Assembly: GCF_000091665.1 (NCBI RefSeq)
Contig: NC_000909.1
Location: 1,464,118 to 1,496,117 of the forward strand
DNA length: 32,000 nt
Origin: Methanocaldococcus jannaschii DSM 2661
GTDB lineage: Archaea > AGJL01 > Methanococci > Methanococcales > Methanocaldococcaceae
Direction: 5' to 3'
A program made the translations under genes and the position numbers. Shown piece by piece: positions 177 through 32,000 of the stretch; position 1 is the stretch's first letter; every line of letters starts with the position of its first letter. The notes under the pieces were generated by a model, which did not search any database, was not told the origin of the DNA, and worked only from the letters and a program-made list of their open reading frames with translations.

Positions 177-1478
<1,302 letters not shown>

Positions 1479-1936: not shown

Positions 1937-1944
1937 GTGGGGTT

Positions 1945-2415: not shown

Positions 2416-2420
2416 TTTTT

Positions 2421-4228: not shown

Positions 4229-4255
4229 AGTCAATCACCAGTTTAAGTGATGATA

Positions 4256-4350: not shown

Positions 4351-4362
4351 AATAAGGCAACT

Positions 4363-4374
4363 ATATTTATATTC
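4363..4374 (+). promoter_or_regulatory. Putative TATA box for the protease operon
   Basis: TATATTTATATT lies about 35-50 nt upstream of the candidate ATGs at 4410 and 4422. Archaeal TATA boxes sit about 25 nt upstream of the transcription start. Confidence 0.35.
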
Positions 4375-4421
4375 ATGAAGTGATATTAATAATTTACCTT
4401 ACAAAAATAATGGGGGATGAA

Positions 4422-6629: not shown

Positions 6630-6648
6630 ATAATGATGGGGATTAAAA

Positions 6649-8006: not shown

Positions 8007-8105
8007 ATTTCCCCCTACTTACTTTATTTAACATTAATATATAAATAAATACATAAATTAATTTTTATGAGTAATAAAAATTGAAGAGAAGATAAGCGAA
8101 TTTAT

Positions 8106-8798: not shown

Positions 8799-8821
8799 AA
8801 AATCACCGTAAAAATTTAAAA

Positions 8822-9493: not shown

Positions 9494-9497
9494 TTTT

Positions 9498-10451
9498 TCA
9501 CCCCAATAAATCTTTTTTTATATCATAAGATTTTAAATCTTCGCTGATAATAATTTTAAAGCTCTCATTATACTGTTTAACGTTCATTTTATATAAGTTG
9601 AAATACTCCTCCTTGTCATATCTTGCTGAGATATGGGTTAAAATTAATGCCTTTACATTTGCTAATTTGGCTATATTAACGGCATCTCCTATTGTAGAAT
9701 GCATATTCTCTTTAGCAGCATCTTTGGCTGAATCATCAAATGTTGCTTCATGGATTAATACATCACATCCCAACTCTTTTAAATATTTCCCAAAATCTTC
9801 TAATGGAAGAGTGTCTCCACTGTAAGCTAAACAAAATCCTTTTTTTGGTGGTAACAAAACATACTCTGGTTTTATTATCTCTCCATAGATATTTTTAACT
9901 GCCTCTCCATTTTTTAGTTTTTTTAAATCTGGGCCAATTTTAACTCCAAGTTTTTTAGCTTTCTCAATATCTAAACGTGGTTTTTTTATTTCTTTAAATA
10001 TATAAGCGTAAGATGGAATGCCATGTTCAGTTGGATAGGCAATTATCTCATAATTTTCTTCTTTATAGATGGTTATTGGCTCTTTTGTATAAATTTCATA
10101 AACTTTTATTGGAAATTCTATATAATGGGTTCCAAGTTTTAATGAGTTCTCTATAATTTCCTTTGTTCCTTCAGGGCCGAAGATTTTAAGCTCTTTCTCT
10201 CTTCCAAAAAATCCCATACTCTGTAAAAGTCCTGGAATGCCCAATATATGGTCTCCATGTAAATGAGTTATAAATATGTGATTAATTTTCATTGGAGATA
10301 CTTCAGTAAAAAGCATCTGCCTCTGGATATTTTCACCACAATCAAATAAAAAAACCTCTCCTCCAAATTTGAATGCTATTCCAATATGATTTCTATTTTT
10401 TGATGGAACTGCCGCTCCAGTTCCTAAGAATATTAGCTTCATAATAATCAT
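9498..10451 (-). CDS. rnz: Ribonuclease Z (tRNA 3-prime endonuclease, metallo-beta-lactamase fold)
   Basis: N-terminal FLGTGAAVPS, motif II HLHGDH, and a C-terminal THISARY block. The track ORF starts at 10472 and overlaps the upstream gene. An internal Met at 10451 (MIIMKL) or 10442 (MKLIFLGTG) removes the overlap. Confidence 0.9.
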   Translation of the reverse strand: MIIMKLIFLGTGAAVPSKNRNHIGIAFKFGGEVFLFDCGENIQRQMLFTEVSPMKINHIFITHLHGDHILGIPGLLQSMGFFGREKELKIFGPEGTKEIIENSLKLGTHYIEFPIKVYEIYTKEPITIYKEENYEIIAYPTEHGIPSYAYIFKEIKKPRLDIEKAKKLGVKIGPDLKKLKNGEAVKNIYGEIIKPEYVLLPPKKGFCLAYSGDTLPLEDFGKYLKELGCDVLIHEATFDDSAKDAAKENMHSTIGDAVNIAKLANVKALILTHISARYDKEEYFNLYKMNVKQYNESFKIIISEDLKSYDIKKDLLG

Positions 10452-19634: not shown

Positions 19635-22600
19635 ATGATACCGATGATATATAAAGAGATGTGTCCTAACTGTAACGGAGAGATAACGAGTGAAAGGTTA
19701 GCTATAGGAGTTTGTGAAAAATGTTTAAAAGAAGAAAATGTTTTTGAAAAACTAAAATTATGTGAAAAACTTAGAGAAGAGAAAACTTTGAAAAATTTAA
19801 AAGATTATTGTATTATTTGGAATGAATTTAAAGAATTTGAAGAATTTGTAAAAGATTTAGGATTTGAACTTTTAAGTATTCAAAAGATGTGGGCTAAAAG
19901 GGTTTTAAAGAACAAGAGTTTTTCAATCGTAGTACCAACTGGAGTTGGAAAGAGCTTTTTTGGAATACTTATGAGCCTATTCTTAGCTAAGAAAGGGAAA
20001 AGATGTTATATAATTCTACCAACAACACTACTGGTTAAGCAAACTTATGAAAAAATATCCTCCTTAACAGAAAAAAATAACTTAAATATAAGAGTAGTTG
20101 CATATCATTCAGAACTCTCAACAAAGGAAAAGAAAGAGGTAAAGGAGAGGATTGAAAACAACGATTATGATGTTTTGATAACAACATCCAACTATCTAAC
20201 AAAAAACATGCCAAAATGCAAATTTGACTTTGTATTTGTTGATGATGTCGATGCATTGTTAAAAGCATCTAAAAACATTGACAGAACTTTAAAGTTGTTA
20301 GGATTTGATGAAGAGATAATAAATGAGGCATATAAAATCATCTACCTAATAAAGATTGGAAAGATAGAGGATGCAATGAAAAAGAGAGAAATTTTAAAGA
20401 AAAAAATATCTAAAATAAAGCATGGCTGTTTAATAATTGCTTCTGCAACTGGAAAGAGTTATGGGGATAGAGTTAAGCTTTACAGAGAGCTTTTAGACTT
20501 TGAAATTGGATTTGGAATGAATAAGCTTAGGGATGTTGTTGATATCTACGACGAGGAATTTAGCAAAGAGAAGATTTTGGAGTATATAAAATTATTTGGT
20601 TCTGGCGGAATTGTGTTCGTTTCAATTGACTACGGAGTTGAGAAAGCCCAAGAGATTGAAAAATATCTATTAGAAAATAATATCAAGGCAAAATTAATCC
20701 ATTCAAAGGATAAGAAGGGATTTGATGATTTCAGAGAGGGAAAGATTGATGTTTTGATTGGAGTGGCATCATACTATGGTGTCTTGGTTAGAGGTTTAGA
20801 CATGCCGGAAAGGGTTAGATATGCTATCTTTTATGGCATTCCGAAGTTTAAAATTAGATTAAAGGAGTATATAAACAGCTTAAAGGAGAAGGGAGAGTTA
20901 AAAGAAGATATTAACATAGAAGGAAAGACTGAGGAGGAAATTAGGCAGATAATAACTGAGAAATTAAAGATAAAGAACTTCTCTCTAAGGAAGGAGGATG
21001 ATGAATATCTATTGTTAATTCCAGATGTAAAAACCTATATCCAAGCATCTGGAAGAACTTCAAGGATGACAGAGTTTGGTTTGACTAAAGGGGCAAGTAT
21101 TGTATTGGTGGATGAGAAAGAGATTTTTGAAGCCCTCAAAAAGTATATGCTCTTTATGTATGAGAGTGAATTTAAAAGAATAGATGAGGTAAACTTAGAG
21201 GAGCTAATTAAAAAGATTGATGAAGATAGGGAGAAAATAAAAGTTGGAAGAGCCAAAGGAAAAGTCCCAGATTTGCTAAAATCTGTCTTAATGGTTGTAG
21301 AAAGCCCTAATAAGGCAAGAACTATAGCAAACTTCTTTGGAAAGCCCTCTGTTAGAAAGATAAACAACAGAAATGTCTATGAGGTTTGTATTGGAGATTT
21401 AAACTTGATTATAACTGCGAGTGGAGGGCATGTATTTGATTTGGTTACAAAAGAGGGTTTCTATGGGGTTAAAATAGAAAATAACTTGTATATTCCAATA
21501 TATACATCAATTAAAAAAGTGAATGGAGAGCAATTTACCGACCAAAAGGATTTGGAGGAGTTGATAAAGCAGTTAATGGAGAAAGGAGAGAGAGTAAATG
21601 CAATGGATGCTAAGGAGAACATAGAGATTATTAGGGAGATAGCCGATGAGGTTGATGCAATATTCATAGCAACCGATATCGATACAGAGGGAGAGAAGAT
21701 AGGATATGACATAGCCATAAATGCCCTCCCATTCAATAGAAATATCTACAGAGTAGGATTTAATGAGATTACAAAGAGGGCAATATTAAAGGCAGTTGAA
21801 TCATTTAAAAAAGGAGAAGAACTTAGCTTAGATGAAAATAAAGTTAAAGGACAGGTAGTTAGAAGGATAGAAGATAGATGGATTGGATTTAGGTTGAGTC
21901 AAAAGCTTTGGGAGGTATTTAATAAAAACTACCTCTCAGCTGGTAGAGTTCAAACACCAGTGTTAGGATGGATTATTGAGAGATACAATGAACATAAAAT
22001 AAAAGTCCCTTATCTATCTCTAAAATTGGAAAATGACATATATATTGGAAAGATTTGGGAAGATGAGTTTGATAAGGATGAGGTTGAAGTTGAAGTTAAA
22101 GTTTATGAGAAGGAGATTCCTCCATTACCTCCATTCACAACAGACACATTGTTAGAGGAAGCTACAAAGAGATTTGGATTAAGCACCGATGAAATAATGT
22201 CTATAGCTCAAGAGCTTTTTGAGTTAGGGTTATGTTTAACTCCAGATACCTATGTTGTGTTAGGGGATGGAAGAATTGAAACAATTGAAGACATTGTTAA
22301 TGCTAAGGAAAGAAATGTTTTATCATTAGATTTAGATAATTTATCAATAAAAATAGATACAGCCATTAAATTCTGGAAATTGAGATATAATGGAAACCTA
22401 AGTAAAATTACTCTTTCGAACAATTATGAGCTAAAGGCAACTCCAGACCATTGCTTATTGGTTTTAAGAGACAATCAACTAAAATGGATTCCTGCAAAAG
22501 ATATTAAGGAAAATGATTACATTGCAATGCCATTTAACTATAAAGTTGAAAGAAAGCCAATCTCCCTATTAAATCTTCTGAAATATTTGGATATTACTGA

Positions 22601-24476
22601 TGTATTAATAGAGTTTGATGAAAACTCCACAATATTTGAAAAAATAGCTGAATATATTAGAAACAATATTAAAACAAGCACAAAATACAAATATCTAAGA
22701 AATAGAAGAGTCCCGTTAAAATATCTAATTGAGTGGAATTTTGATTTGGATGAGATTGAGAAAGAGGCAAAATACATATATAAAAGCGTTGCAGGAACTA
22801 AAAAAATTCCATTGTTTAAGTTAGATGAGAGGTTTTGGTATTTTGCAGGTTTGGTATTGGGAGATGGAAGCATTCAAGATAGCAAAATTAGAATTGCACA
22901 AACACCATTAAAGGATGTTAAAAGCATATTGGATGAGACATTCCCATTCTTACACAATTGGATTTCTGGTAACCAAGTGATTATTTCAAATCCAATTATT
23001 GCTGAAATTTTGGAAAAATTAGGAATGAGAAATGGAAAATTAAACGGAATTATCTTCTCTCTCCCAGAAAGTTATATAAATGCATTAATTGCTGGATATT
23101 TTGATACAGATGGATGCTTCTCCCTACTTTATGATAAAAAGGCAAAAAAACATAATTTAAGAATGGTTTTAACATCAAAAAGAAGAGATGTTTTAGAAAA
23201 GATAGGCATTTATCTAAACTCAATTGGTATTCTAAATACTTTACACAAAAGTAGAGAAGTTTATTCCTTAATAATAAGCAATAAGTCCTTAGAAACCTTT
23301 AAGGAAAAGATTGCGAAATATTTAAAGATTAGAAAAGAGGCATTTATAAATGGTTATAAAACATATAAGAAGGAGCATGAAGAAAGATTTGAATGTGATT
23401 TATTGCCAGTAAAAGAGGTATTTAAGAAATTAACATTTGAAAAGGGAAGAAAGGAAATTCTAAAAGATAGCAAAATACACATTGAAAATTGGTATAAAGA
23501 GAAAACAAATAACATCCCAAGAGAAAAATTAAAGACAGTGCTAAGATATGCAAATAATTCAGAACATAAAGAGTTTTTAGAAAAGATTGTTAATGGAGAT
23601 ATATCCTTTGTTAGAGTTAAAAAAGTAGAAAATATTCCTTATGATGGATATGTCTATGATTTAAGCATTAAACATAACCAAAACTTTATATCAAATGGAG
23701 TTATCTCACACAATTGCACATATCACAGAACCTCTTCAACAAGAGTTTCATTGGATGGGATGAGAGTAGCAAGAGAGTATCTAAAACTAAACAATTTAGA
23801 GGATTATTTAAAAAATAGAGAATACTTTATGGAAGGAGCTCATGAATGTATAAGACCAACAAAACCAATGAATACCGATGAGTTAATAGAGTTTTTAAAG
23901 GAAAATAACATAAAGCTAACTAAAAATCATATAAAAGTTTATGATTTGATATTTAGAAGATTTATAGCCTCTCAGATGAAAGAGGCTGTTGTTGAATATG
24001 AAGAGATTTATATAAAAGATTTAGATGAGAAGGTTGAGGGATATGTTGATATAAAGTTTGATGGTTGGAGTAGAATTTATAATCTAAAATTAAAAAAGCT
24101 TCCAAGGATTGAAAAGAGCAGTTTAAAAGTTTTAGACAAAAAACTTAGAAAGATTCCAAAAGTTCCATTGTATGATGAGGGAGAGGTTGTTAAGTTGATG
24201 AAAGAGAGGGGTATTGGAAGACCTTCAACCTATGCCCAAATTATTAAAAAGCTGTTAGATAGGGGATACGTAGTTAAAAGTAAAGATAAGAATAAGTTAA
24301 TCCCAACAAAGCTGGGAATTGAAGTCTATAATTATTTGATAAACAATTATCCTCACTTAATATCTGAAGAGAGAACAAGGGAGTTGGAGGAGATTATGGA
24401 TAAGATTGAAAATGGAGAAGTTGATTACATAGAAGTGCTAAAAGCTTTACATGAGGAGATTTTGAGTATAAGATAG
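19635..24476 (+). CDS. rgy: Reverse gyrase (helicase-like domain fused to type IA topoisomerase), interrupted by an intein
   Basis: N-terminal zinc finger CPNCNG...CEKC, Walker A PTGVGKS, DDVD box, Toprim (VESPNKA ... DIDTEGEKI), and topo IA active-site block TYHRTSST after the intein. 1613 aa including a 494-aa intein. Confidence 0.97.
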   Translation: MIPMIYKEMCPNCNGEITSERLAIGVCEKCLKEENVFEKLKLCEKLREEKTLKNLKDYCIIWNEFKEFEEFVKDLGFELLSIQKMWAKRVLKNKSFSIVVPTGVGKSFFGILMSLFLAKKGKRCYIILPTTLLVKQTYEKISSLTEKNNLNIRVVAYHSELSTKEKKEVKERIENNDYDVLITTSNYLTKNMPKCKFDFVFVDDVDALLKASKNIDRTLKLLGFDEEIINEAYKIIYLIKIGKIEDAMKKREILKKKISKIKHGCLIIASATGKSYGDRVKLYRELLDFEIGFGMNKLRDVVDIYDEEFSKEKILEYIKLFGSGGIVFVSIDYGVEKAQEIEKYLLENNIKAKLIHSKDKKGFDDFREGKIDVLIGVASYYGVLVRGLDMPERVRYAIFYGIPKFKIRLKEYINSLKEKGELKEDINIEGKTEEEIRQIITEKLKIKNFSLRKEDDEYLLLIPDVKTYIQASGRTSRMTEFGLTKGASIVLVDEKEIFEALKKYMLFMYESEFKRIDEVNLEELIKKIDEDREKIKVGRAKGKVPDLLKSVLMVVESPNKARTIANFFGKPSVRKINNRNVYEVCIGDLNLIITASGGHVFDLVTKEGFYGVKIENNLYIPIYTSIKKVNGEQFTDQKDLEELIKQLMEKGERVNAMDAKENIEIIREIADEVDAIFIATDIDTEGEKIGYDIAINALPFNRNIYRVGFNEITKRAILKAVESFKKGEELSLDENKVKGQVVRRIEDRWIGFRLSQKLWEVFNKNYLSAGRVQTPVLGWIIERYNEHKIKVPYLSLKLENDIYIGKIWEDEFDKDEVEVEVKVYEKEIPPLPPFTTDTLLEEATKRFGLSTDEIMSIAQELFELGLCLTPDTYVVLGDGRIETIEDIVNAKERNVLSLDLDNLSIKIDTAIKFWKLRYNGNLSKITLSNNYELKATPDHCLLVLRDNQLKWIPAKDIKENDYIAMPFNYKVERKPISLLNLLKYLDITDVLIEFDENSTIFEKIAEYIRNNIKTSTKYKYLRNRRVPLKYLIEWNFDLDEIEKEAKYIYKSVAGTKKIPLFKLDERFWYFAGLVLGDGSIQDSKIRIAQTPLKDVKSILDETFPFLHNWISGNQVIISNPIIAEILEKLGMRNGKLNGIIFSLPESYINALIAGYFDTDGCFSLLYDKKAKKHNLRMVLTSKRRDVLEKIGIYLNSIGILNTLHKSREVYSLIISNKSLETFKEKIAKYLKIRKEAFINGYKTYKKEHEERFECDLLPVKEVFKKLTFEKGRKEILKDSKIHIENWYKEKTNNIPREKLKTVLRYANNSEHKEFLEKIVNGDISFVRVKKVENIPYDGYVYDLSIKHNQNFISNGVISHNCTYHRTSSTRVSLDGMRVAREYLKLNNLEDYLKNREYFMEGAHECIRPTKPMNTDELIEFLKENNIKLTKNHIKVYDLIFRRFIASQMKEAVVEYEEIYIKDLDEKVEGYVDIKFDGWSRIYNLKLKKLPRIEKSSLKVLDKKLRKIPKVPLYDEGEVVKLMKERGIGRPSTYAQIIKKLLDRGYVVKSKDKNKLIPTKLGIEVYNYLINNYPHLISEERTRELEEIMDKIENGEVDYIEVLKALHEEILSIR
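22233..23714 (+). mobile_element. Intein (494 aa) with LAGLIDADG homing-endonuclease domain, inside rgy
   Basis: Starts with Cys (CLTPDTYVVLGDG, block A). Block B is ATPDHCLLV. LAGLIDADG motifs are YFAGLVLGDGSI and LIAGYFDTDGCF. Ends in VISHN, followed by a +1 Cys. Removing it restores ELGL-CTYHRTSST. Confidence 0.95.
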
Positions 24477-24480
24477 TGAA

Positions 24481-25479
24481 TTATCCAACGTAGTTCAGTA
24501 GCATTTTCCCTTTTTCACTTATTCTTATATATTTTGACTTACCTATTTTTTCTGGTTTTTCTATCAATTCCAATTCTAAGAGTTTTTCAACAACATTTTT
24601 ATTAACCCAAACCAAATCACTCTGCCCAGTAGAACTAACTGAACTCCTACACTTTTTCCTCCAAGTAATAATCTTCTTCAAATCATCAACATCACTCCCA
24701 ACGACCTCCTTTAACTCTCTAACTAAATTCTTCATTTTTTTAACAGATGAGTTGCTAACAGATTCCTTTCTCTCCACTGCTTTAATTAACTCTTTTATAC
24801 TCTCATTATCATTTAAATCCACGTTTAAAAACTCTTCTTTTGTTAAAATACTAAGTTCTTTTATAGTTAATCCTCTATTTCCAGCCCTGCCAATGAACTT
24901 CAAAAATATTAGCAACTCTTCCCTTGGCAAAGTTACTTCAAATGGATAGATTAGCTTAACACCTCTAACGCCAAAACTTCTTGGCAAATAAGGGCAGTTA
25001 TATTTACTTTCATATTCTTTTTTTAATTCTTCCTTTTCTTTTTCAGAGAGGCCATCTAAAGATTTCTCTGGCATTACATAATATGGAATAATCCTTGAAT
25101 TTTCCTTATTTAATATCATTGCACAGGTTATGCCAGCAATACACCCAATTGTAGAGCCAGAAGATACGTTAATATAGAATTTAACATCTCCAAATTCTTT
25201 TCTCTCATGAGCTATAATTAACTTCATCTTTTTAACAATATCATCTAAATCAAACAAATCTGCCTCTACAATCTCATAATTAACCCGCTTTTCTTCAAAC
25301 TTTTTAATAATAACATTTTTAAATGCTTTTCCTCGTTTTGAATCATTATTTCCAGGTTTGCAAATTAAATAAACTTTTTCAGCCCTCCTCATTATTGGAA
25401 CTTCTGTAATTCTATCTACTTCATAACCTTGAACTGCTATATGAACTCCACCTCTTATTTTCTCTAAATCATTTGTCAT
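24481..25479 (-). CDS. Csa3/CARF-like Rossmann domain fused to C-terminal winged-helix (putative ligand-sensing regulator)
   Basis: The N-terminal pattern of about 140 aa (VHIAVQGYEVDRI ... KVYLI ... FYINVSSGSTIGCIAGITCAMIL) resembles the Csa3/HFX_2341-type fold. The C-terminus (EKLLELELIEKPEKIGKSKYIRISEKGKMLL) looks wHTH-like. The likely start is ATG at 25479, after an AGGTGA SD (track start is GTG at 25488). Confidence 0.5.
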   Translation of the reverse strand: MTNDLEKIRGGVHIAVQGYEVDRITEVPIMRRAEKVYLICKPGNNDSKRGKAFKNVIIKKFEEKRVNYEIVEADLFDLDDIVKKMKLIIAHERKEFGDVKFYINVSSGSTIGCIAGITCAMILNKENSRIIPYYVMPEKSLDGLSEKEKEELKKEYESKYNCPYLPRSFGVRGVKLIYPFEVTLPREELLIFLKFIGRAGNRGLTIKELSILTKEEFLNVDLNDNESIKELIKAVERKESVSNSSVKKMKNLVRELKEVVGSDVDDLKKIITWRKKCRSSVSSTGQSDLVWVNKNVVEKLLELELIEKPEKIGKSKYIRISEKGKMLLNYVG

Positions 25480-25491
25480 TTTACTCACCTT

Positions 25492-25533
25492 TAGTAAGGA
25501 CAGTAACTACATTAAGGTTACTAAGATAGTAAG
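25492..25533. promoter_or_regulatory. Candidate operator repeats in the divergent intergenic region
   Basis: TAGTAAG occurs at 25492-25498 and 25527-25533, flanking the inverted repeat AGTAAC-n9-GTTACT (25502-25522). Confidence 0.3.
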
Positions 25534-25596
25534 TATTATTTATACTCTCTCATATTAAATTATTCATGAGCATTACAAAACCAAAGTTGTGATACT

Positions 25597-25959
25597 ATGG
25601 AGTATGTGTTTGTTTATGGGAGTTTAAGAAAGGGCTTCTGGAATCATGAACCATATTTAAAAAACTCTAAATTCATTGGAAAAGGAAAAACTAAGGAAAA
25701 ATACGCTATGTATGTCAATATCATCCCCTATGTTGTTGAAAATGAAAAAATCTCTCATATCGTTGGGGAAGTTTATGAGGTTGATGAAAAAACGTTAAAA
25801 AGAATTGACTGCCTTGAAGGACATCCTGATTATTATAGAAGAAAGAAAGTTTCGATAATTTTAGATTCTGGAAAGGAGATAGAGGCTTGGCTTTATTTTT
25901 ATCCAGAATCTTGTGGAATTCTGGTAGAATCTGGAGATTATAAGGATTATAGGGGATAA
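25597..25959 (+). CDS. Gamma-glutamylcyclotransferase-fold protein (AIG2/GGACT-like)
   Basis: N-terminal YGSLRKG motif, GEVYEV strand, and LEGHPDYY containing the conserved catalytic Glu context. Confidence 0.8.
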   Translation: MEYVFVYGSLRKGFWNHEPYLKNSKFIGKGKTKEKYAMYVNIIPYVVENEKISHIVGEVYEVDEKTLKRIDCLEGHPDYYRRKKVSIILDSGKEIEAWLYFYPESCGILVESGDYKDYRG

Positions 25960-25961
25960 GC

Positions 25962-27029
25962 ATGTGTGAGTTGCTTGGAATTTGCTTTAATAAGAAAGTT
26001 AATGTTGAGTTATCATTAAATAGCTTTAAGCATAGGAGTGAAGATCATCCAAATGGTTGGGGGATTGCATTTTATCCAGATGGGTTTGTTAGGGTAATAA
26101 AAGAGCCGATTAAAATGAATGAAGCTTTATTAGCTGAATGTGTCAGATGGACTAAGATAAAATCAAATATATTCATTGCCCACATAAGAAAGGCAAGTGC
26201 TGGAAGTGAATCTTACGTAAATACCCATCCATTTGTTAGAAAATTAGAAGATAAAGAAATAGCATTTGCTCACAATGGAACTCTACTTGGATATGAGGAT
26301 TTAGAGCTTGATGGCTATTATCCAATTGGAGAGACGGATTCGGAGTATGTATTCTGCTATTTATTATCTCAAATTGAAAAGAGGGAGATTGAGTGGAATA
26401 AAGAGGGTTTTGATGAGATGTTGGATATACTGCTTGATATTAATTACTATGGAGCTTTTAATTGCTTATTCTCCGATGGAGAGTATTTATTTGCCTATAA
26501 AGATTATAGAGGGAGGAGAGAGTTGCATTTCCTAAAGAGAAAGCCACCTTATGGAAGAATTAGATTGGAGGATGAGGATTATATTATAAACTTAGGAGAT
26601 GTTAAAAGTGTGAGAGAAGAAGGGTTTATTATAGCTACAAATCCTCTAACTAATGAAGATTGGAAGTCTTTTGAAAATGGAGAACTTATGGTGTTTAAAA
26701 ATGGGGAAATGATTTACTCTAATAAGAGATTGACAGATTTGGAATTGAAAATCTTAAAAATCCTTAGAGAAAGTCCCCATAGAGTCAGTTTAAAGAAAAT
26801 AATTGAAAATCTTGAGTATTTATCCAGAAATATAAGACATGATGCTTCCGTTGTGAGAATTGGGATTAGAAGTTTGTTGGATAAGGGATATATCAAGCAA
26901 GATAGTAGAGACACTGTCAATTGGGATGATTTAGAGGCAACATTTTATACTAAACCAGAAAAGAGGGTAGAGATTGATAAAAGGCTTAAAGGATTTAGAT
27001 GGAGAAGAAATAGGATAATTATGAGTTAA
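25962..27029 (+). CDS. Class II (Ntn) glutamine amidotransferase domain (YafJ/EgtC-like) fused to a C-terminal wHTH-like domain
   Basis: Met-Cys2 nucleophile (MCELLG), HPNGWGIA, HIRKAS..SESYVNTHPF and FAHNGTL blocks. The last 100 aa or so (LTDLELKILKILRESPHRVSLKKIIENLE ... LLDKGYIKQ) resemble a winged helix. Starts 2 nt after the GGCT stop. Confidence 0.8.
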   Translation: MCELLGICFNKKVNVELSLNSFKHRSEDHPNGWGIAFYPDGFVRVIKEPIKMNEALLAECVRWTKIKSNIFIAHIRKASAGSESYVNTHPFVRKLEDKEIAFAHNGTLLGYEDLELDGYYPIGETDSEYVFCYLLSQIEKREIEWNKEGFDEMLDILLDINYYGAFNCLFSDGEYLFAYKDYRGRRELHFLKRKPPYGRIRLEDEDYIINLGDVKSVREEGFIIATNPLTNEDWKSFENGELMVFKNGEMIYSNKRLTDLELKILKILRESPHRVSLKKIIENLEYLSRNIRHDASVVRIGIRSLLDKGYIKQDSRDTVNWDDLEATFYTKPEKRVEIDKRLKGFRWRRNRIIMS

Positions 27030-27050
27030 TTTAATAATAGAATTGAGGTG

Positions 27051-27347
27051 ATGGCGATGAATGAAATAGAACTAATGCAAATTAAAGATTTTGTAAAAGA
27101 CATGGATAAAAATCAACGAATTGTGTATTATGAGCAGAAGAAAAAGAGTGTCGGTATTGCAGTATTGCTTAGCTTCATAATTCCAGGAGCAGGGCAAATG
27201 TATCTTGGAAGGGTTGGAAAGGGAATAATATTGTTATTAACATGCTGGCTTATTATACCATGGATTTATAGCATTTATGATGCCTACAAGTCAGCAAAGG
27301 ATTACAATGCCCAACTTTATTCAATAATCTTCAGCAAAGATGATTAA
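27051..27347 (+). CDS. TM2-like two-helix membrane protein
   Basis: The soluble N-terminus is followed by IPGAGQMYLGRVGKGIILLL, a GxGxxYxGxxxxG motif between two TM helices. The track start is GTG at 27048. ATGs at 27051 and 27057 follow a GAGG SD. Confidence 0.55.
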   Translation: MAMNEIELMQIKDFVKDMDKNQRIVYYEQKKKSVGIAVLLSFIIPGAGQMYLGRVGKGIILLLTCWLIIPWIYSIYDAYKSAKDYNAQLYSIIFSKDD

Positions 27348-27372
27348 TTTTTAATTTTTTGGAGGAGATTTG

Positions 27373-27618
27373 ATGATATTGGATTTAATTGAACTCATAA
27401 TAAGTGTAATGGTTATAATATTCCTGATAGCGTGTATTTTCTTTATTATAGGAGGGATAATGTTTTCAGTCTTGTGTATTGGGATGATAATTGATGGATT
27501 AATCTCCTCTAACTTTGGAGAGGTAGGAATGGGAGTATTTGCACTTGTGGTAACGGTATTTGCATTATTGATGGTTTTTACTATGTTGGGTATGCTGTTC
27601 GATTTCTTAAAGGACTGA
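27373..27618 (+). CDS. Small hydrophobic membrane protein (about 3 TM)
   Basis: GGAGGAG SD 5 nt before the ATG at 27373. Strongly hydrophobic and TM-like. Preferred over the antisense 155-aa ORF because of operon context and composition. Confidence 0.5.
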   Translation: MILDLIELIISVMVIIFLIACIFFIIGGIMFSVLCIGMIIDGLISSNFGEVGMGVFALVVTVFALLMVFTMLGMLFDFLKD

Positions 27619-27633
27619 ATATTCGGTGGCAGT

Positions 27634-27906
27634 ATGGGATTTCTAAAAATAATGTTAAGAATTTTTTGCTGGTTTTTTGCGACGTTGGTGTTGTATTCTA
27701 TAGCTCCATTATGGCCGTTATATGGAATCATTGGAGTGCCAGTAATTCTACCACGCCTTATATTTAAAGACAAAAAGAAGTGTCTAACAACAACATCCAC
27801 ACTACTACTCCTTGTCATATTTCTTCCTGAATTGCTGATTCTTATTGGATTTCTGATATTTCCTATTGTTATGGGCTATTACATCTCTAAGGAATTGGTG
27901 AAGTAA
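27634..27906 (+). CDS. Small hydrophobic membrane protein (about 3 TM)
   Basis: GGTGG SD upstream. TM-like segments are separated by a basic loop (KDKKKC). Its stop lies 1 nt before the next ATG. Confidence 0.5.
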   Translation: MGFLKIMLRIFCWFFATLVLYSIAPLWPLYGIIGVPVILPRLIFKDKKKCLTTTSTLLLLVIFLPELLILIGFLIFPIVMGYYISKELVK

Positions 27907-27907
27907 A

Positions 27908-28744
27908 ATGGTGAAGCTTATGAATTTGTGGAGTGAGAGGATTAAAGATAGGGAAGTTGTTGAAGTTATTGGCTGTGAGAGAGTGCCATTGAATGAAACG
28001 TTGAATGAGATTGTAGTATTATTTGACGAATATACAAAAAGAGGGGATTATAAGGTAGAGATATTTGATGATGTCTTTAATTATTATCATAATAGAATTT
28101 TAACTAATGATGAGTTTATTGATGGTGTTGCAAGAATAAAATTGGGATTGGACACAAGAAATCATGCTAAAGAGTGGTTATTGGAAGTAGTAAATTGGTT
28201 TGCTGGTAATAGATATAATTTAAGAGATGAGGAGATAAAGTTAGGGAATAGATTGAGAGATTGGATGAATATTGGAGTTTCTTTAGTAATTCCTAAAGAG
28301 TTAAAGCCAAAGTTTGATGAGTTTTATAAAATGGCTAAAAAATTTGATTGGCAAGTAGAAATTAGGAATGAGATGATATTTAAGACAACTTTAAATGGTA
28401 AGGAAGTTTATACTTTTATATTGATGGGGGATGTGGTTAATGAGAGGTTAGATAACATCTTAGATGGTGGAGGAGTTTTTGATTTAGGGAAGAGGGTTGT
28501 TTGTGATGATGAGTGGTTTAGTGGGTGGTTAGTTAGGGATATTGATGTTAATAAAAATATAATGGAAGTGTTGGGCATGTTGAGTTTGAAAAGCCAGGAA
28601 ATTCTGGATATTTCAGTGGAGAGTGCTTTAATAAGAAGGAAAAATATAAAGACAAAAAGTATGGTAGTAAAATTGGTAAAAGTAAAAAATCTAATCCAAC
28701 TATTGAAAAGAAAAAAGAAAAGTGGGCTGAATTGCTTAGTATAA
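27908..28744 (+). CDS. Hypothetical soluble protein (278 aa), no recognisable motif
   Basis: Long ORF tightly coupled to the upstream membrane genes. Trp/acidic-rich (DEWFSGWLV). The Lys-rich tail overlaps the alternative frame of the next ORF. Confidence 0.55.
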   Translation: MVKLMNLWSERIKDREVVEVIGCERVPLNETLNEIVVLFDEYTKRGDYKVEIFDDVFNYYHNRILTNDEFIDGVARIKLGLDTRNHAKEWLLEVVNWFAGNRYNLRDEEIKLGNRLRDWMNIGVSLVIPKELKPKFDEFYKMAKKFDWQVEIRNEMIFKTTLNGKEVYTFILMGDVVNERLDNILDGGGVFDLGKRVVCDDEWFSGWLVRDIDVNKNIMEVLGMLSLKSQEILDISVESALIRRKNIKTKSMVVKLVKVKNLIQLLKRKKKSGLNCLV

Positions 28745-29856
28745 TCTTTGGTTCAAAACCTCGTGAAGACGAAATCGACAGTGTAGATAGATACATGACA
28801 AAACTATTCCTTCGCATAATTTTCATTCCAGATTACACTAACAAAATACATGATTTGAGTGAAAATGTTTCTAAAAATATTAAAAATCTTATCATGGAAT
28901 TAAAAAGTGGAAATATATTTGAAATTAACAAAATTCTGGATGATTTAGAATATAATATTTACACAATTGATGATGAGTCTTTAACAATCAAAGAGAGAGT
29001 TTATAATGCAGTTGAGATAATATTTAAGGTAGTATCTAACGAAATACTAAGAACGGAAAGCATAGATGACAAAGAATTAGAAATTATTAAAAAACTGCAT
29101 GAATTAGTGGTGTTAACTGATAAAGTCCTTAGAATTACTTACAATTCACTTAATAGAAGTTTAGAAGATATTAATAGCTATAGAAGGATTATAGCTAATA
29201 ACAATCTTCCAGATGACATTATTCGTAGGTTAAACATAATAAACGCCTACATTGAGAAAATTAAGAGTGATATATTAAGTATGAGAGAAAATGAGCAAAG
29301 AGTATTGATTATTTGCCTATCAAAGTTTTATAATTTATATTTATCAAAAGATAAAAAAGAAAGAGAAAAATTGGCAGATGAAATTAAAAATTTAATAGAA
29401 TATCTATATTTTGATTGGTATTATGACTTTATTGATAACATTGGAGAATATGAGTTTAAGTTTATAAAAAATATAGCCGCTATGTGTTTGCTATATGATT
29501 ATACAAAAGAATTGGAGAAAGATGGTAGTAAAGAGATGTTTAACCATGTAATTTTCAAAATTTTGAGAAATGGAGGTTTTAAAGTTAAAGAGTATGATAT
29601 TATTGAGACATTGTTGAATATTAGGGAAAATTTACCTAAATCATCTAAGATAGATGTTAGATACTTTGATAAGGAGTTAATAAAGATTATTAGAGGAATT
29701 GTTAGAGAATCAAAAAAGGATGTGTTTTATAATAATATGAAGAGGTTGAAGGAGTTTGTTGAAGAGCTAAGAGAGATGGAAAAGAAATTAAGTGAGGCTA
29801 ATAATATAACTCTACATGATTTGAGGAAATTGGGGTTTAATGATATGTTTCTTTGA
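28732..29856 (+). CDS. Hypothetical all-helical protein (up to 374 aa), no recognisable motif
   Basis: Long ORF. The track start is TTG at 28732, and the first in-frame ATG is at about 28795 (MTKLFL). The frame is already open from 28555. Confidence 0.55.
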   Translation: MLSIIFGSKPREDEIDSVDRYMTKLFLRIIFIPDYTNKIHDLSENVSKNIKNLIMELKSGNIFEINKILDDLEYNIYTIDDESLTIKERVYNAVEIIFKVVSNEILRTESIDDKELEIIKKLHELVVLTDKVLRITYNSLNRSLEDINSYRRIIANNNLPDDIIRRLNIINAYIEKIKSDILSMRENEQRVLIICLSKFYNLYLSKDKKEREKLADEIKNLIEYLYFDWYYDFIDNIGEYEFKFIKNIAAMCLLYDYTKELEKDGSKEMFNHVIFKILRNGGFKVKEYDIIETLLNIRENLPKSSKIDVRYFDKELIKIIRGIVRESKKDVFYNNMKRLKEFVEELREMEKKLSEANNITLHDLRKLGFNDMFL

Positions 29857-29971
29857 TAATTATTAGGTTTGTTTATATAGATAATAAGATTGTAAAATAC
29901 TTTAATAAATAAAAGTTAAAAAATATAAATATTACTTCTACTTAATATTAAAATAAAGCTGAGGTGGTATC

Positions 29972-32000
29972 ATGAGAAATTTAATATCTTTGATAGCGTG
30001 GCATGATTCTGGATGGAATGGTAGAGTTTGTAGAAATCCAAAAGAAAATAAATATTGTGAGAGCTTTGGATATGTGATAAGAAAGAGAAAGTATGAATTT
30101 TGTGTAAATAATCCAGATGCTAATTTAGGAAATTCAAGAGAAAGAGCATGTAGTGAAGCAATAGTATTTTGTAAAGGGAAAGTACAGGAGCATAACATAA
30201 GATTTCCAGCAATATTTTATGTTGATAGAAAAAACAGAAATGAACATGAAATAAAAATGATAAAAAAAGAAATTGAAGAACAATTAAGAATGATTAACGG
30301 AAAATACGCAATACTTTATGTTAGAGAAAATCCTTTATCTGAAAATAGAGTAATAGTCGGATGTGTTAAAATAAAGGAAATAATAGATGGTAGCAAGGAT
30401 TACATTAGAAAAAAACAGAGTCCTAATAGAGTAGGAAGAGGCATTGTTTTTGATGTAGAGAATGATGTAATATTTGCTTTACCTTATCAAGAACTCTTAG
30501 AATACTGCAAAAATAAAAATAAAGAAATTGAAGAAATTCTAAAAGAATTTAATTTAATTTTTGAAGTTGGGGACTTTGAAAGATACTTTAAAGGCATGTC
30601 TAACTTTATATCCGATGAGGTGGCAGTCCAAATTCTTAAAAAAGGGCTTGAAATTGTTGAGGAATTCAATAAATTTAGAGAAGAAAATCAGGACTTTGAT
30701 AAATACTTAACTGATGAGAATATAGCATTTAGACCTCATGTTATGAAAAAGTTTGATGAATTCGCTGAAAATATAAAAAAGGTTATTGCAGAACTTGAAG
30801 GTAGTAAATATAAATATCCTGGACTTCCTGGAGTTCTTTATTTCTTAGGAATGGAAGATGCTTACTCAAGATATATTGAACTTTGGAAAAATGAAGGAGA
30901 AAAAGGAGAAGAGAAACTTTATAATGCATTAATTGAAAGTTTAGAAAATAGAAAAGAAAATTTAGAGTTTGGAATTACAAAAAAGGTTATAGACAAATTT
31001 ATAGCACAGAAGGAAGAGTTTAGAGAGTTTTTAAAAAATTATGCTGTTTATTATGAGTTATCTGCATTTAAACTTGAAAAAATTAAGGAACAATATGAAA
31101 AAGAATTTATTAATTTAGATAACATAATAAAAAATCCATACATTTTGGTTGAGGATTTAAAAGAAAATGATAGTTTTGAAAGGATAATATTTGAAGAGCT
31201 TGACTCATGGGAAAGAAGAAGATTGGGGGATAAATTTAATCCTTACAGTCCATATAGAGTTAGAGCTTTATTGGTTGAAATTCTAAAAAGGCATTTAAGT
31301 TCAGGAAACACTACAATTTCAACAAAAGACCTTAAAGATTTCTTTGAAAAAATGGATAAAGACATTGTAAAGATAACTTTTGATGAATTTTTAAGGATAA
31401 TTGAGGAATATAAAGACATAATATCTGAAAAAGTTGAAATAGTCAAAAAAGAAGTTAAAAATAATGAAAATAAAGAAATTATTGAATTATTTACCCTAAA
31501 AGAAATTAGAGAATATGAGGAGATAATTGAAAATACCATAAATTATCTCTTAAAGTCGAAAGCTCCAAATATTGATTTGAATCCATTAGAAATTAGAGAA
31601 AAATTAAGAATAAAAAACGAAAATAAAAAACCAGCGGGAGTTGATAATGAAGAATATGAAAAAGCTTTAGATATGCAAACTGAGGCAGTTGTAAATCTAC
31701 TTAAAAATAGAGTTGGAATATTAACAGGACCAGCAGGCACTGGAAAAACAACGGTCATAAAAACAATTATGGAATTAATGAAGGAAGTGCTTGGATTAAA
31801 TAAAATCTACATATTAACACCAACTGGAAAGTCAGCAATGGTCGTTAATGAAAAATTAAATAATTTAGCAACTGCAAAAACAATACATAGATATATTGCA
31901 GAGGAATTTAAAGATTATTTTGAGGGAGATAATTATTTCATCCTTAGATTGGATAAAATAACTGGTAATGACAAGAAAGAAATTGATGCTTTAATTATAG
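29972..32000 (+). CDS. Large multidomain protein, partial (runs off the window): Trp/Cys-rich N-terminal module + long helical region + RecD-like SF1 helicase core
   Basis: Not in the ORF track. I translated 676 codons from the ATG at 29972 (GAGGTGG SD 4 nt upstream) to 32000 without a stop. Helicase motif I GPAGTGKTT (nt 31727-31753, residues 586-594), motif Ia LTPTGKSA, and then AKTIHRYI. The N-terminus is AWHDSGWNGRVC with Cys at residues 20, 29, 44, 60 and 67. Confidence 0.85.
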   Translation, partial: MRNLISLIAWHDSGWNGRVCRNPKENKYCESFGYVIRKRKYEFCVNNPDANLGNSRERACSEAIVFCKGKVQEHNIRFPAIFYVDRKNRNEHEIKMIKKEIEEQLRMINGKYAILYVRENPLSENRVIVGCVKIKEIIDGSKDYIRKKQSPNRVGRGIVFDVENDVIFALPYQELLEYCKNKNKEIEEILKEFNLIFEVGDFERYFKGMSNFISDEVAVQILKKGLEIVEEFNKFREENQDFDKYLTDENIAFRPHVMKKFDEFAENIKKVIAELEGSKYKYPGLPGVLYFLGMEDAYSRYIELWKNEGEKGEEKLYNALIESLENRKENLEFGITKKVIDKFIAQKEEFREFLKNYAVYYELSAFKLEKIKEQYEKEFINLDNIIKNPYILVEDLKENDSFERIIFEELDSWERRRLGDKFNPYSPYRVRALLVEILKRHLSSGNTTISTKDLKDFFEKMDKDIVKITFDEFLRIIEEYKDIISEKVEIVKKEVKNNENKEIIELFTLKEIREYEEIIENTINYLLKSKAPNIDLNPLEIREKLRIKNENKKPAGVDNEEYEKALDMQTEAVVNLLKNRVGILTGPAGTGKTTVIKTIMELMKEVLGLNKIYILTPTGKSAMVVNEKLNNLATAKTIHRYIAEEFKDYFEGDNYFILRLDKITGNDKKEIDALII

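What the first reader, a model, noticed from the sequence alone, without database searches (positions are those of the whole stretch)
27048..32000. Co-directional cluster: three small membrane proteins, two unknown proteins and a giant RecD-like helicase
Six genes lie on the same strand. The first five are tightly packed or overlapping, with gaps from about 1 to 25 nt. They are a TM2-like protein, two roughly 80-90-aa multi-TM proteins, a 278-aa protein and a protein of up to 374 aa. I can place neither of the last two in any family. After a 115-nt AT-rich spacer comes an ORF of more than 676 aa whose helicase core only begins at residue 586. Membrane components plus unknown adaptors plus a large SF1 helicase is the general layout of many prokaryotic conflict or defence loci. 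The cluster also sits in an accessory-looking stretch after an orphan CARF-like regulator. I cannot match the set to any named system.
Basis: partly seen in the sequence, partly recalled or inferred. Interest (0 to 1): 0.75.

Follow-up and report, generated by a model that had tools for sequence, protein, structure and literature searches.

The report
Patchwork archaeal defence island, not one system
The proposed six-gene "system" in Methanocaldococcus jannaschii is really three separate things side by side: the tail of a conserved regulator-controlled operon, one unknown gene broken in two by a single-base frameshift, and a stand-alone helicase-nuclease from an untested candidate anti-virus family (PDC-S68).

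Summary
All the ORFs exist at the stated coordinates, but they are not a six-gene unit. Eleven related loci were compared.

(1) The TM2 protein and the two small membrane proteins are the distal genes of an operon that starts upstream at 25597. It runs GGACT cyclotransferase, then GATase_4 fused to a winged helix. It faces a divergently transcribed Csa3-like HFX_2341 regulator across a conserved repeat-bearing promoter region.

(2) The 278-aa and 374-aa "unknown proteins" are two pieces of one lineage-specific gene of about 620-645 aa ("X"). In this genome a 1-nt deletion in an A-run at 28553-28557 splits it. X is intact in two metagenome contigs and disrupted at different sites in five of eight copies.

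(3) The helicase has its own 115-nt upstream spacer. It matches PADLOC's untested single-gene candidate PDC-S68 (SF1B RecD2-like motor; the orthologues carry a C-terminal PD-(D/E)xK nuclease). It is present in only 4 of 11 related loci, at three different positions. Elsewhere it occurs on viral contigs and beside DISARM on plasmids.

In relatives the same slot holds McrBC, so the defence-island context is supported and the proposed composite system is not.

The most interesting lead lies outside the finding: a GGACT-GATase_4 pair that recurs next to McrBC-like genes on mobile elements in two archaeal orders.

The parts
24481..25488 (-). Csa3-like regulator: HFX_2341_N (CARF-like Rossmann) domain plus a C-terminal winged helix. 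Transcribed divergently from the operon.
   Evidence: Pfam HFX_2341_N 109 bits (cutoff 30) and DUF6293_C wHTH. PADLOC CARF3--CARF E 1.7e-132. An orthologue sits in the same position in 9 related loci. The family prototype is a Csa3a-like repressor (PMC11434293).
25489..25596 (.). Divergent promoter region. It holds 3-4 direct repeats of (T)AGTAAG with a period of about 9 nt, followed by a TATA-like TATTATTTATA. Probably an operator.
   Evidence: The repeat block is conserved in 9 loci, including L003, where the gene downstream is the helicase. Function is inferred, not tested.
25597..25959 (+). GGACT / AIG2-like gamma-glutamyl(amine) cyclotransferase; first gene of the operon.
   Evidence: Pfam PF06094 105 bits. 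72-90% identical orthologues in all related loci that reach this position.
25962..27029 (+). Class II (Ntn) glutamine amidotransferase, GATase_4 (YafJ-like), with a C-terminal Csa3-type winged helix (aa ~250-316).
   Evidence: Pfam PF13230 266 bits. The C-terminus matches the wHTH part of PADLOC CARF3--CARF (E 1e-5). 471 full-length relatives, about 50% identical across phyla.
27048..27347 (+). TM2-domain membrane protein (2 TM). The true start is probably the ATG at 27057, 7 nt after the GAGGTGA Shine-Dalgarno-like site.
   Evidence: Pfam TM2 39 bits. Hydropathy. Orthologues align from residue 4 and follow GATase_4 in 9 loci, plus a TM2-like 115-aa protein in M. indicus.
27370..27618 (+). 82-aa (81 from the ATG at 27373) two-TM protein of no known family.
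   Evidence: Hydropathy peaks 3.46 and 2.68. 80% identical in L006 and 66% in L017, with a weak relative in L003 (E 6e-6). Absent from L001, L002, L011, L012, L016.
27634..27906 (+). 90-aa multi-TM protein of no known family.
   Evidence: Hydropathy. 99% identical in L006 and 81% in L017. In L005, L011, L012 and L014 an unrelated ~100-aa TM protein takes its place.
27908..28557 (+). Gene X, N-terminal conserved globular domain (aa 1 to ~213; start probably the ATG at 27920). This is the genuine part of the '278-aa protein'.
   Evidence: 55-77% identical to X in L004, L011, L012, L014, L017 and 44% in L016. dN/dS 0.19 against L004. No Pfam, PADLOC, NCBIfam or PDB match.
28553..28557 (+). Frameshift site: a run of A5 where relatives carry one more base. 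This splits gene X.
   Evidence: DNA alignments. Inserting one A restores a 645-aa ORF collinear with the intact 622-aa (L014) and 638-aa (L016) genes.
28558..28744 (+). Out-of-frame tail of the annotated 278-aa ORF; not conserved as protein.
   Evidence: This tail aligns to L004 only in a frame that L004 does not use for coding. The other frame carries the conserved sequence KYNGSVGHVEFEKPGNSGYFSGECF.
28555..29856 (+). Gene X, linker plus coiled-coil/helical C-terminal part. This is the '374-aa protein' together with 59 conserved codons upstream of its TTG.
   Evidence: The frame is open from 28555. Collinear with L004, L011, L012, L014 and L016. dN/dS 0.41. Only coiled-coil-type chance matches in the PDB.
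29857..29971 (+). AT-rich 115-nt spacer with TATA-like TTTATATA at 29872-29879 and a GAGGTGG ribosome-binding site. Probably the helicase's own promoter.
   Evidence: Sequence. Similarity to the helicase loci L001, L002, L003 starts only ~11-26 nt before the ATG. The promoter was not tested, because the available scan does not cover archaeal promoters.
29972..30493 (+). Helicase N-terminal domain (aa 1-174). Invariant W10, G17, C20, P23, N26, C29, C60; near-invariant H11, D12, W15. Possible metal site plus a beta-rich core.
   Evidence: Alignment A2. No Pfam or PDB sequence match. AF2 pLDDT 69. The Foldseek top list is dominated by PUA-like folds (Lon-N, YTH, ASCH, PUA), all at E >= 0.26.
30494..31675 (+). 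Helicase helical/DNA-binding region (aa ~175-568), including a wHTH-like segment and the HHH_RecD2 domain (aa 358-447).
   Evidence: Pfam HHH_RecD2 37.7 bits (cutoff 27); HTH_45 only weakly. AF2 model pLDDT 82.9, pTM 0.81. Weak Foldseek wHTH hits.
31676..32000 (+). Start of the SF1B motor (Walker A GPAGTGKT); the gene runs off the window.
   Evidence: Pfam AAA_19 65 bits and AAA_30 43 bits. Full-length orthologues are 1101-1160 aa with SH3_13, UvrD_C_2 and a C-terminal PD-(D/E)xK-like domain.

Best explanation
The interval is a patchwork at a variable slot of an accessory island conserved in Methanocaldococcus and Methanotorris. It is not one system.

(a) Operon tail. TM2 and the small membrane proteins are the distal genes of an operon that begins with GGACT and GATase_4-wHTH. 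The operon is probably controlled, from a repeat-bearing divergent promoter, by the Csa3-like HFX_2341 regulator.

(b) Gene X. The next gene encodes a lineage-specific ~620-645-aa protein with an unknown globular N-domain and a coiled-coil/helical C-part. In M. jannaschii a 1-nt deletion splits it into the '278-aa' and '374-aa' ORFs, so it is most likely inactive or truncated here.

(c) Helicase. It is an independently transcribed, horizontally mobile single-gene module of the PADLOC candidate family PDC-S68.

Inferred mechanism for (c): the Cys/His-containing, possibly PUA-like N-domain and the wHTH/HHH region recognise foreign, perhaps modified, nucleic acid. The RecD2-type SF1B motor then translocates 5'->3', and the C-terminal PD-(D/E)xK nuclease, seen in the orthologues, degrades the target.

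Shown: gene structures, family matches, the frameshift and the synteny pattern. Inferred: regulation by HFX, the separate promoter, any defence activity and the helicase mechanism.
For: Synteny across 11 related loci:
- HFX(-) | GGACT, GATase_4 in every locus that reaches those positions; TM2 follows GATase_4 in all but L016 (M. indicus has only a TM2-like 115-aa protein).
- Small TM proteins differ between loci.
- X is present in 7 related loci besides the window.
- The helicase is present in only 4. It lies after X in the window, after a TPR protein plus a 173-aa protein in M. igneus, directly after the TM2-like gene in M. indicus, and between HFX and GGACT in L003.
- McrB/McrC occupy the slot in L006, L011, L012, L014 and L016, and follow the helicase in L001.

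Frameshift. Intact X in L014 and L016. dN/dS 0.19 and 0.41.

Helicase:
- PDC-S68 match E 1.5e-52 for the fragment and E 1e-122 to 1e-132 end to end for orthologues.
- C-terminal match to HEAT_CxxC_PD-DEXK and PDC-S69.
- Only 69 clusters of 1.84 billion carry the N-terminal region.
- Full-length relatives lie on 7 IMG/VR contigs and next to an integrase and DISARM drmA on Bacillus cereus plasmids.
- PDCs are defined as untested candidates found embedded in BREX, DISARM or type I RM systems (bioRxiv 10.1101/2024.01.29.577857).

Spacing and operator-like repeats.
Against: - No expression or phenotype data; co-transcription and promoter positions are read from spacing only.
- In all four Methanococcales loci with enough context, the helicase lies within a few kb of HFX/GGACT/GATase_4. 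That could mean functional coupling rather than a shared insertion hot spot.
- The frameshift could be an error in the 1996 reference sequence, or the two X fragments could still function.
- The PUA-like assignment of the helicase N-domain is not statistically supported (best Foldseek E 0.26).
- The locus surveys were limited by pattern-based scans and capped look-ups, so the presence/absence counts are small samples.
Confidence: 0.62

Rival explanations
1. The whole island is one integrated, regulated defence supersystem: the HFX regulator, GGACT, GATase_4-wHTH, TM2 and small TM proteins, X or a TPR protein, and then McrBC and/or the PDC-S68 helicase. The gamma-glutamyl-processing enzymes, the membrane proteins and X would act as sensor, modifier or accessory components for the nuclease modules. 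One possibility is that they strip or recognise amino-acid-type hypermodifications on invading DNA.
For: The same order recurs in 10 Methanococcales loci, always ending in McrBC and/or the helicase. A distant GATase_4-GGACT pair (33% identity) sits with an ADP-ribosylglycohydrolase, a TPR protein, a DUF2357/PDDEXK_7 nuclease and an AAA_5-like protein on Thermococcus barophilus plasmid pTBMP1. The same module lies in the mobile island PYG1 of Pyrococcus yayanosii, which also carries McrBC (PMC5126054). In L003 the helicase is embedded between HFX and GGACT, directly after the conserved repeat block. A bacterial GATase_4-wHTH lies beside a helicase plus PLD (Mokosh-like) pair and a transposase.
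Against: The GATase_4-wHTH family is very broad, and E. coli yafJ-type relatives sit in ordinary chromosomal contexts. X is disrupted in 5 of 8 copies, and the TM genes and X are absent or swapped in some loci, so they are dispensable. No biochemical link between GGACT/GATase_4 and DNA is known. Adjacency could simply reflect a stable gene block next to an insertion hot spot.
Confidence: 0.18
2. One reading: the six ORFs from 27048 to the window end form one novel defence system made of membrane components, adaptors and a helicase.
For: The ORFs share a strand and are closely spaced. The context is defence-like and the helicase is a defence candidate.
Against: No related locus carries this gene set. 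L017 shares TM2, p82, p90 and X, but its contig ends inside X. X occurs with McrBC and no helicase in 4 loci (L011, L012, L014, L016). The helicase occurs without X, p82 or p90 in 3 loci. Two of the 'six genes' are halves of one frameshifted gene. A 115-nt spacer separates the helicase. PDC-S68 relatives elsewhere are single genes in unrelated contexts.
Confidence: 0.05
3. An ordinary housekeeping neighbourhood: a gamma-glutamyl-cycle metabolic operon with small membrane proteins, followed by a RecD2-type DNA-repair helicase, with no role in conflict.
For: GGACT and GATase_4 are enzyme families with metabolic members. The authors of PMC5126054 interpreted the pair as gamma-glutamyl-cycle enzymes. 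The helicase has RecD2-type HHH and SF1B motifs.
Against: The helicase scores 93.5 bits against a cutoff of 500 for the RecD2 equivalog. It was not found in close relatives such as FS406-22 or M. formicicus, neither at the syntenic site nor among the search hits. It occurs on viral contigs and plasmids, and orthologues carry a nuclease domain. The GGACT-GATase_4 pair is itself on a plasmid and a mobile island. McrBC fills the slot in relatives.
Confidence: 0.1
4. Gene X is functional in M. jannaschii. Either the frameshift is a sequencing error, or it is bypassed by ribosomal or transcriptional slippage on the A-run as an on/off contingency switch.
For: The break lies in a homopolymer. Single-base indels also break X in FS406-22 and M. 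formicicus, in or next to shorter A-rich runs. Long-term dN/dS is below 1. Intact copies exist in environmental contigs.
Against: A5 is too short for efficient slippage, and there is no X XXY YYZ heptamer (sequence). The database's M. jannaschii protein entry (P0012, 274 aa) carries the same truncated product. Other copies are broken by a nonsense codon and by a 261-nt deletion, which points to plain decay.
Confidence: 0.12

Closest known systems
PADLOC phage-defence candidate PDC-S68 (Payne et al., bioRxiv 10.1101/2024.01.29.577857)
   Same: Orthologues give an end-to-end HMM match. The architecture is the same: N-terminal WHDxGWNG/Cys motif domain, HHH, SF1B RecD-like motor and C-terminal PD-(D/E)xK-like domain, about 1100-1250 aa. 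It is a single gene, and it lies next to restriction-type genes or on mobile elements.
   Different: This is a divergent archaeal branch (441 bits against 1145 bits for a bacterial member). Here it lies beside McrBC-type genes and a GGACT/GATase_4 operon rather than inside BREX, DISARM or type I RM. The family itself has never been tested experimentally.
RecD2 (SF1B 5'->3' DNA helicase, TIGR01448; Deinococcus radiodurans prototype)
   Same: HHH_RecD2 domain, AAA_19/AAA_30 motor; SH3_13 and UvrD_C_2 in orthologues.
   Different: It scores 93.5 bits against the 500-bit equivalog cutoff. It has about 350 extra N-terminal residues, including a Cys/His domain with no family, and in orthologues a C-terminal nuclease.
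McrBC / type IV restriction islands with modified-base reader domains (EVE, YTH, ASCH, SRA fused to nucleases or NTPases)
   Same: A nucleic-acid motor plus a PD-(D/E)xK nuclease, with an N-terminal beta-rich domain whose best (weak) structural neighbours are PUA-like readers. Genuine McrBC genes are the neighbours in relatives.
   Different: The motor is an SF1B helicase, not an AAA+ GTPase. There is no evidence of modification dependence.
Csa3 / HFX_2341 CARF-wHTH regulators
   Same: The upstream regulator is a clear family member and sits at a divergent promoter that carries conserved repeats.
   Different: There are no cas genes or CRISPR array in the window. The regulated genes would be GGACT, GATase_4 and membrane proteins. 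The ligand is unknown.
Module III of Pyrococcus yayanosii island PYG1 / Thermococcus barophilus plasmid pTBMP1
   Same: An adjacent GATase_4 and GGACT pair with a TPR protein (as in M. igneus) and McrBC-like genes, on mobile DNA.
   Different: Gene order is reversed (GATase_4 before GGACT). An ADP-ribosylglycohydrolase is present. There is no TM2, HFX, gene X or PDC-S68 helicase. Identity is only 33%.

Membership tests
PDC-S68 (PADLOC candidate) | Significant match to the PDC-S68 HMMs over the length of the protein | tested here: met
   Window fragment: E 1.5e-52, aa 115-645 on model positions 148-658 of 1202. Full-length orthologues P0001, P0003, P0006: E 1e-122 to 1e-132, covering roughly model positions 173-1203 of 1221. 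The first ~100 residues align to family members separately.
PDC-S68 (PADLOC candidate) | Single-gene unit, found embedded in or beside other defence systems | tested here: met
   It moves independently of its neighbours. It lies next to McrBC in M. igneus, next to DISARM drmA on a B. cereus plasmid, and between AGOG/GIY-YIG, AAA, CHAT-TPR and RmuC genes in L009.
PDC-S68 (PADLOC candidate) | C-terminal nuclease-like domain | not testable with these tools
   The window ends at residue 676. Orthologues match HEAT_CxxC_PD-DEXK (E 5e-6) and the PDC-S69 C-terminus.
PDC-S68 (PADLOC candidate) | Protection against viruses or plasmids | not tested
   The source paper lists the PDCs as untested.
RecD2 equivalog (TIGR01448) | Score above the curated equivalog cutoff | tested here: not met
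   93.5 bits against 500 for the fragment. Only the HHH_RecD2 and P-loop domains are shared.
TM2 domain family (PF05154) | Pfam score above the gathering threshold; two TM helices | tested here: met
   39 bits against 27.9. Hydropathy peaks at aa 35-53 and 59-77.
HFX_2341 / Csa3-like CARF regulators | HFX_2341_N domain plus C-terminal winged helix | tested here: met
   109 bits against 30 and 27.5 bits against 27. PADLOC CARF3--CARF E 1.7e-132.
HFX_2341 / Csa3-like CARF regulators | Association with CRISPR-cas | tested here: not met
   No CRISPR-like array, no Rfam hit, and no cas gene among the genes annotated from 19.6 kb to the window end (ORFs before 19.6 kb were not annotated).
PUA-like modified-base readers (EVE/YTH/ASCH) | Significant sequence or structure match of the helicase N-domain | tested here: inconclusive
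Any known family for gene X (278-aa + 374-aa ORFs) | Profile match in Pfam, NCBIfam, PADLOC or PDB | tested here: not met
   No hit for the fragments or for the intact homologues. Only coiled-coil chance matches in the PDB. Not found on plasmids or viral contigs.

The most novel reading that the evidence does not exclude
The conserved block could be a previously undescribed, mobile accessory module of McrBC-type (type IV) restriction in hyperthermophilic archaea. The block comprises a Csa3-like regulator, GGACT cyclotransferase, GATase_4-wHTH, small membrane proteins, and either X or a TPR protein. Its enzymes would sense or process gamma-glutamyl/amide-type modifications or signals and gate the adjacent nucleases (McrBC, the PDC-S68 helicase-nuclease). 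The recurrent breakage of gene X would then reflect the cost of that system.
Probability: 0.15. Interest if true: 0.7.

Novelty: new member of a known kind. Interest (0 to 1): 0.35.

Why it matters
For annotation, two M. jannaschii 'hypothetical proteins' should be merged into one frameshifted gene. The large 'hypothetical ATP-binding protein' can be labelled as an archaeal PDC-S68-type helicase-nuclease. This extends a purely bacterial-looking, untested defence candidate to hyperthermophilic methanogens, and it supplies a confident model of its N-terminal half.

For discovery, the result removes a false lead (a six-gene membrane/adaptor/helicase system) and replaces it with a sharper one. A GGACT-GATase_4 gene pair recurs next to McrBC-like restriction genes on chromosomes, a plasmid and an integrative island in two archaeal orders. 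In Methanococcales it sits under a Csa3-like regulator with a conserved operator-like repeat. That association can be tested by comparative genomics and in genetically tractable relatives.

Tried and rejected
- Exact-sequence look-ups of the 278-aa and 274-aa products found nothing.
- I first thought gene X was broken in every known copy, a possible universal pseudogene or phase-variable gene, on the basis of five loci. A metagenome scan then found intact copies in L014 and L016, so I dropped that claim.
- The genome-contig scan with GATase_4 returned only 3 loci and missed M. igneus, because the peptide patterns were too specific. It cannot be used for absence claims.
- Literature searches for PDC-S68 and MJ1519 gave nothing relevant. 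No paper linking GGACT/GATase_4 to McrBC as a system was found.
- Rfam, tRNA and tandem-repeat scans of the window found nothing bearing on the locus.
- Gene X has no relative on plasmids or viral contigs, so I rejected a mobile-element origin for X.
- I considered programmed frameshifting and rejected it as unlikely: the run is only A5 and there is no slippery heptamer.

Full report
**Source and setting.**
- The window is from the Methanocaldococcus jannaschii chromosome. The 274-aa product of the fourth ORF is 100% identical to a protein named for that species on a 1,664,970-bp contig.
- Upstream lies reverse gyrase carrying an intein (19635-24476).
- Base composition across 24-32 kb (25-34% GC) does not differ from the rest of the window.

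**Observation.**
- The first is a TM2-domain protein (Pfam 39 bits against a cutoff of 27.9).
- The 82- and 90-aa products are strongly hydrophobic and conserved in close relatives, so they are real genes.
- The final ORF runs off the window after 676 codons. Its P-loop starts at about residue 569-590, and an HHH_RecD2 domain lies at 358-447.
- Intergenic gaps (from the likely true start codons) are 27, 25, 15 and 13 nt, then 115 nt before the helicase.
- The tight spacing continues upstream. GGACT (25597-25959) and GATase_4 (25962-27029) are 2 nt apart, and GATase_4 ends 18-27 nt before the TM2 gene, depending on its start codon. The co-directional run therefore starts at 25597, opposite a divergently transcribed HFX_2341_N/Csa3-like regulator (24481-25488, minus strand).

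**The two 'unknown proteins' are one gene.**
- A search of 5.8 billion proteins with the 278-aa ORF gave three hits.
- One of them (P0014, 485 aa) joins the second half of the 278-aa protein to a homologue of the 374-aa protein.
- On its contig (L004) a single frame reads through both parts.
- In the window the frame of the 374-aa ORF is open and conserved from 28555, far upstream of its TTG start. It encodes KYNGSVGHVEFEKPGNSGYFSGECF, exactly as in the relatives.
- DNA alignment places the break at an A-run. The window reads GTTAAT-AAAAATAT where the relatives have one more base.
- Adding one A restores a 645-aa ORF.
- I call this gene X. Copies were then found in FS406-22 (L011), Methanotorris formicicus (L012) and four metagenome contigs.
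- X is intact in L014 (622 aa) and L016 (638 aa), and intact as far as contig L017 reaches.
- It is broken at a different place in each of the window, L011 (-1 nt), L012 (+1 nt), L004 (TGG to TAG) and L005 (261-nt deletion plus -1 nt).
- Against L004, dN/dS is 0.19 for the N-domain and 0.41 for the C-part. X is therefore a real gene that keeps being lost, including in all three cultured strains.
- X has no Pfam, NCBIfam, PADLOC or PDB relative. Its middle section looks like coiled coil.

**Synteny.** The gene order in each locus is as follows.

| Locus | Gene order |
|---|---|
| Window | rgy, HFX(-), GGACT, GATase_4, TM2, p82, p90, X (split), helicase |
| L017 | HFX(-), 186-aa gene, GGACT, GATase_4, TM2, p82, p90, X... 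(contig ends) |
| L006 | HFX(-), GGACT, GATase_4, TM2, p82, p90, 109-aa gene, McrB, McrC |
| FS406-22 (L011) | rgy, HFX(-), 186-aa gene, GGACT, GATase_4, TM2, another 103-aa TM protein, X (split), McrB, McrC |
| M. formicicus (L012) | As FS406-22, with X split elsewhere |
| L014 | GATase_4, TM2, 100-aa TM protein, X (intact), McrB, McrC |
| L016 | HFX(-), GGACT, GATase_4, X (intact), McrB |
| M. igneus (L001) | HFX(-), GGACT, GATase_4, TM2, 638-aa TPR protein, 173-aa gene, helicase, McrB, McrC |
| M. indicus (L002/L007) | HFX(-), GGACT, GATase_4, TM2-like 115-aa gene, helicase |
| L003 | HFX(-), helicase, GGACT, GATase_4, TM2, 95-aa gene, 258-aa gene... |
| L005 | GATase_4, TM2, 100-aa TM protein, X (broken) |

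- The stable core is thus HFX | GGACT-GATase_4, usually followed by TM2.
- The small TM genes and X (or a TPR protein) vary between loci.
- The end of the block is a slot filled by McrBC and/or the helicase.
- The helicase is present in 4 of 11 loci, at three different positions.
- X and the helicase co-occur only in the window.

**The helicase.**
- The fragment matches PADLOC PDC-S68 (E 1.5e-52).
- Full-length orthologues (1101-1160 aa, 41-78% identical) match the model end to end (E 1e-122 to 1e-132).
- Those orthologues have a C-terminal region that matches PD-(D/E)xK models, in addition to SH3_13 and UvrD_C_2.
- It is not a RecD2 equivalog (93.5 bits against 500).
- PDC systems are 145 untested candidates inferred from being embedded in BREX, DISARM or type I RM loci.
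- The N-terminal 563 residues have relatives in only 69 of 1.84 billion clusters.
- The first ~170 residues carry invariant W10, G17, C20, P23, N26, C29 and C60 and near-invariant H11, D12 and W15. They have no Pfam or PDB sequence match.
- An AlphaFold model of residues 1-563 is confident (pLDDT 82.9, pTM 0.81). Foldseek against the PDB gives nothing significant, only weak wHTH and YTH hits.
- A domain-only model (pLDDT 69) returns a top list dominated by PUA-like folds (Lon-N, YTH, ASCH, ATP-sulfurylase N-terminal domain, Cbf5 PUA). All are at E >= 0.26. This is suggestive, not established.
- Full-length family members occur on 7 IMG/VR contigs. On Bacillus cereus megaplasmids one sits between an integrase and DISARM drmA.
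- A 36%-identical homologue (L009) has entirely different neighbours: AGOG, GIY-YIG, AAA, CHAT-TPR and RmuC.
- Together these results indicate a mobile, single-gene helicase-nuclease. The mechanism I give for it (recognition by the N-domain and wHTH/HHH, 5'->3' SF1B translocation, cleavage by the C-terminal nuclease) is inferred from domain content only.

**The upstream operon.**
- The family prototype of HFX_2341 is a Csa3a-like repressor that affects cas and many other genes in Haloferax (PMC11434293).
- Between HFX and GGACT, nine loci share three to four ~9-nt direct repeats of TAGTAAG just before a TATA-like box. This is a plausible operator.
- In L003 the gene downstream of that operator-like block is the helicase.
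- GATase_4 here carries a C-terminal Csa3-type winged helix. It belongs to a broad family, with about 50% identity in Aquificae, Asgard archaea and Spirochaetes.
- In one bacterial MAG it lies beside a helicase plus PLD pair and a transposase.
- A distant GATase_4-GGACT pair, together with an ADP-ribosylglycohydrolase, a TPR protein, a DUF2357/PDDEXK_7 nuclease and an AAA_5-like protein, is on Thermococcus barophilus plasmid pTBMP1.
- The same module is part of the mobile island PYG1 of Pyrococcus yayanosii, which also carries McrBC (PMC5126054).
- This recurrence is the basis of the 'supersystem' rival, to which I give about 0.15-0.2.

**Verdict.**
- The helicase is a new archaeal member of a known, untested candidate family.
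- The two unknown ORFs are a frameshifted lineage-specific gene.
- The membrane proteins belong to the operon upstream.
- Interest is moderate to low for the finding as stated. The GGACT-GATase_4/McrBC association and the recurrent loss of X are the leads worth following.

Noticed in passing
window 19635-24476 (+): The reverse gyrase is 1613 aa. It aligns at 95% identity with the 1119-aa FS406-22 enzyme except for an insert of about 480-494 aa (about aa 867/882-1360) with LAGLIDADG-type motifs. This is an intein, absent from the close relative.
   Followed up: partly
window 25489-25596; the same region in L001, L002, L003, L006, L011, L012, L016, L017: There are three to four ~9-nt direct repeats of TAGTAAG (consensus AAATAGTAAGTATAGTAAGCTTAGTAAGnTAGTAAGTATTATATAT) just upstream of the HFX regulator gene and next to a TATA-like box. 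They are conserved across nine loci and are probably an operator.
   Followed up: partly
gene X: window 27908-29856; L004, L005, L011, L012 (broken); L014, L016, L017 (intact): The same lineage-specific gene is inactivated independently in 5 of 8 copies (three 1-nt indels, one nonsense codon, one 261-nt deletion plus an indel). These include all three cultured isolates. Two to three environmental copies are intact.
   Followed up: yes
L026 (Thermococcus barophilus plasmid pTBMP1, 7741-17423) and P. yayanosii island PYG1 (PMC5126054): On mobile DNA of Thermococcales, GATase_4 and GGACT sit next to an ADP-ribosylglycohydrolase, a TPR protein, a DUF2357/PDDEXK_7 nuclease and an AAA_5-like protein. 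This mirrors the Methanococcales arrangement next to McrBC.
   Followed up: partly
L013 (bacterial MAG SDBU01000006) 1-9842: A GATase_4-wHTH homologue (46% identical) lies beside an AAA_11/AAA_12 helicase, a PLDc_2 protein (a Mokosh-like pair) and a DDE transposase. There is no GGACT or HFX gene.
   Followed up: no
L003 480-6631 (-): In this metagenome contig, directly beyond the HFX regulator lie a 1305-aa ResIII/DEAD helicase with an MZB (DUF1998-type) domain and a 436-aa protein. This is a DISARM/Druantia-like pair, adjacent to the PDC-S68 helicase.
   Followed up: no
L001 1796-4172 (-): In Methanotorris igneus the island is flanked by homologues of MJECL32 and MJECL33. Those Pfam families are named after genes with MJECL locus tags, which I recall as the tags of the M. 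jannaschii large extrachromosomal element.
   Followed up: no
L011 7976-8536, L012 7983-8528, L017 1255-1791: An extra conserved 181-186-aa gene of no known family lies between HFX and GGACT in three relatives. It is absent from the window, where only 108 nt separate the two genes.
   Followed up: no
window 30230-30294: A 33-nt imperfect tandem duplication (2 copies, 78% match) lies inside the helicase N-terminal coding region, in the lysine/glutamate-rich helix at about aa 87-108.
   Followed up: no
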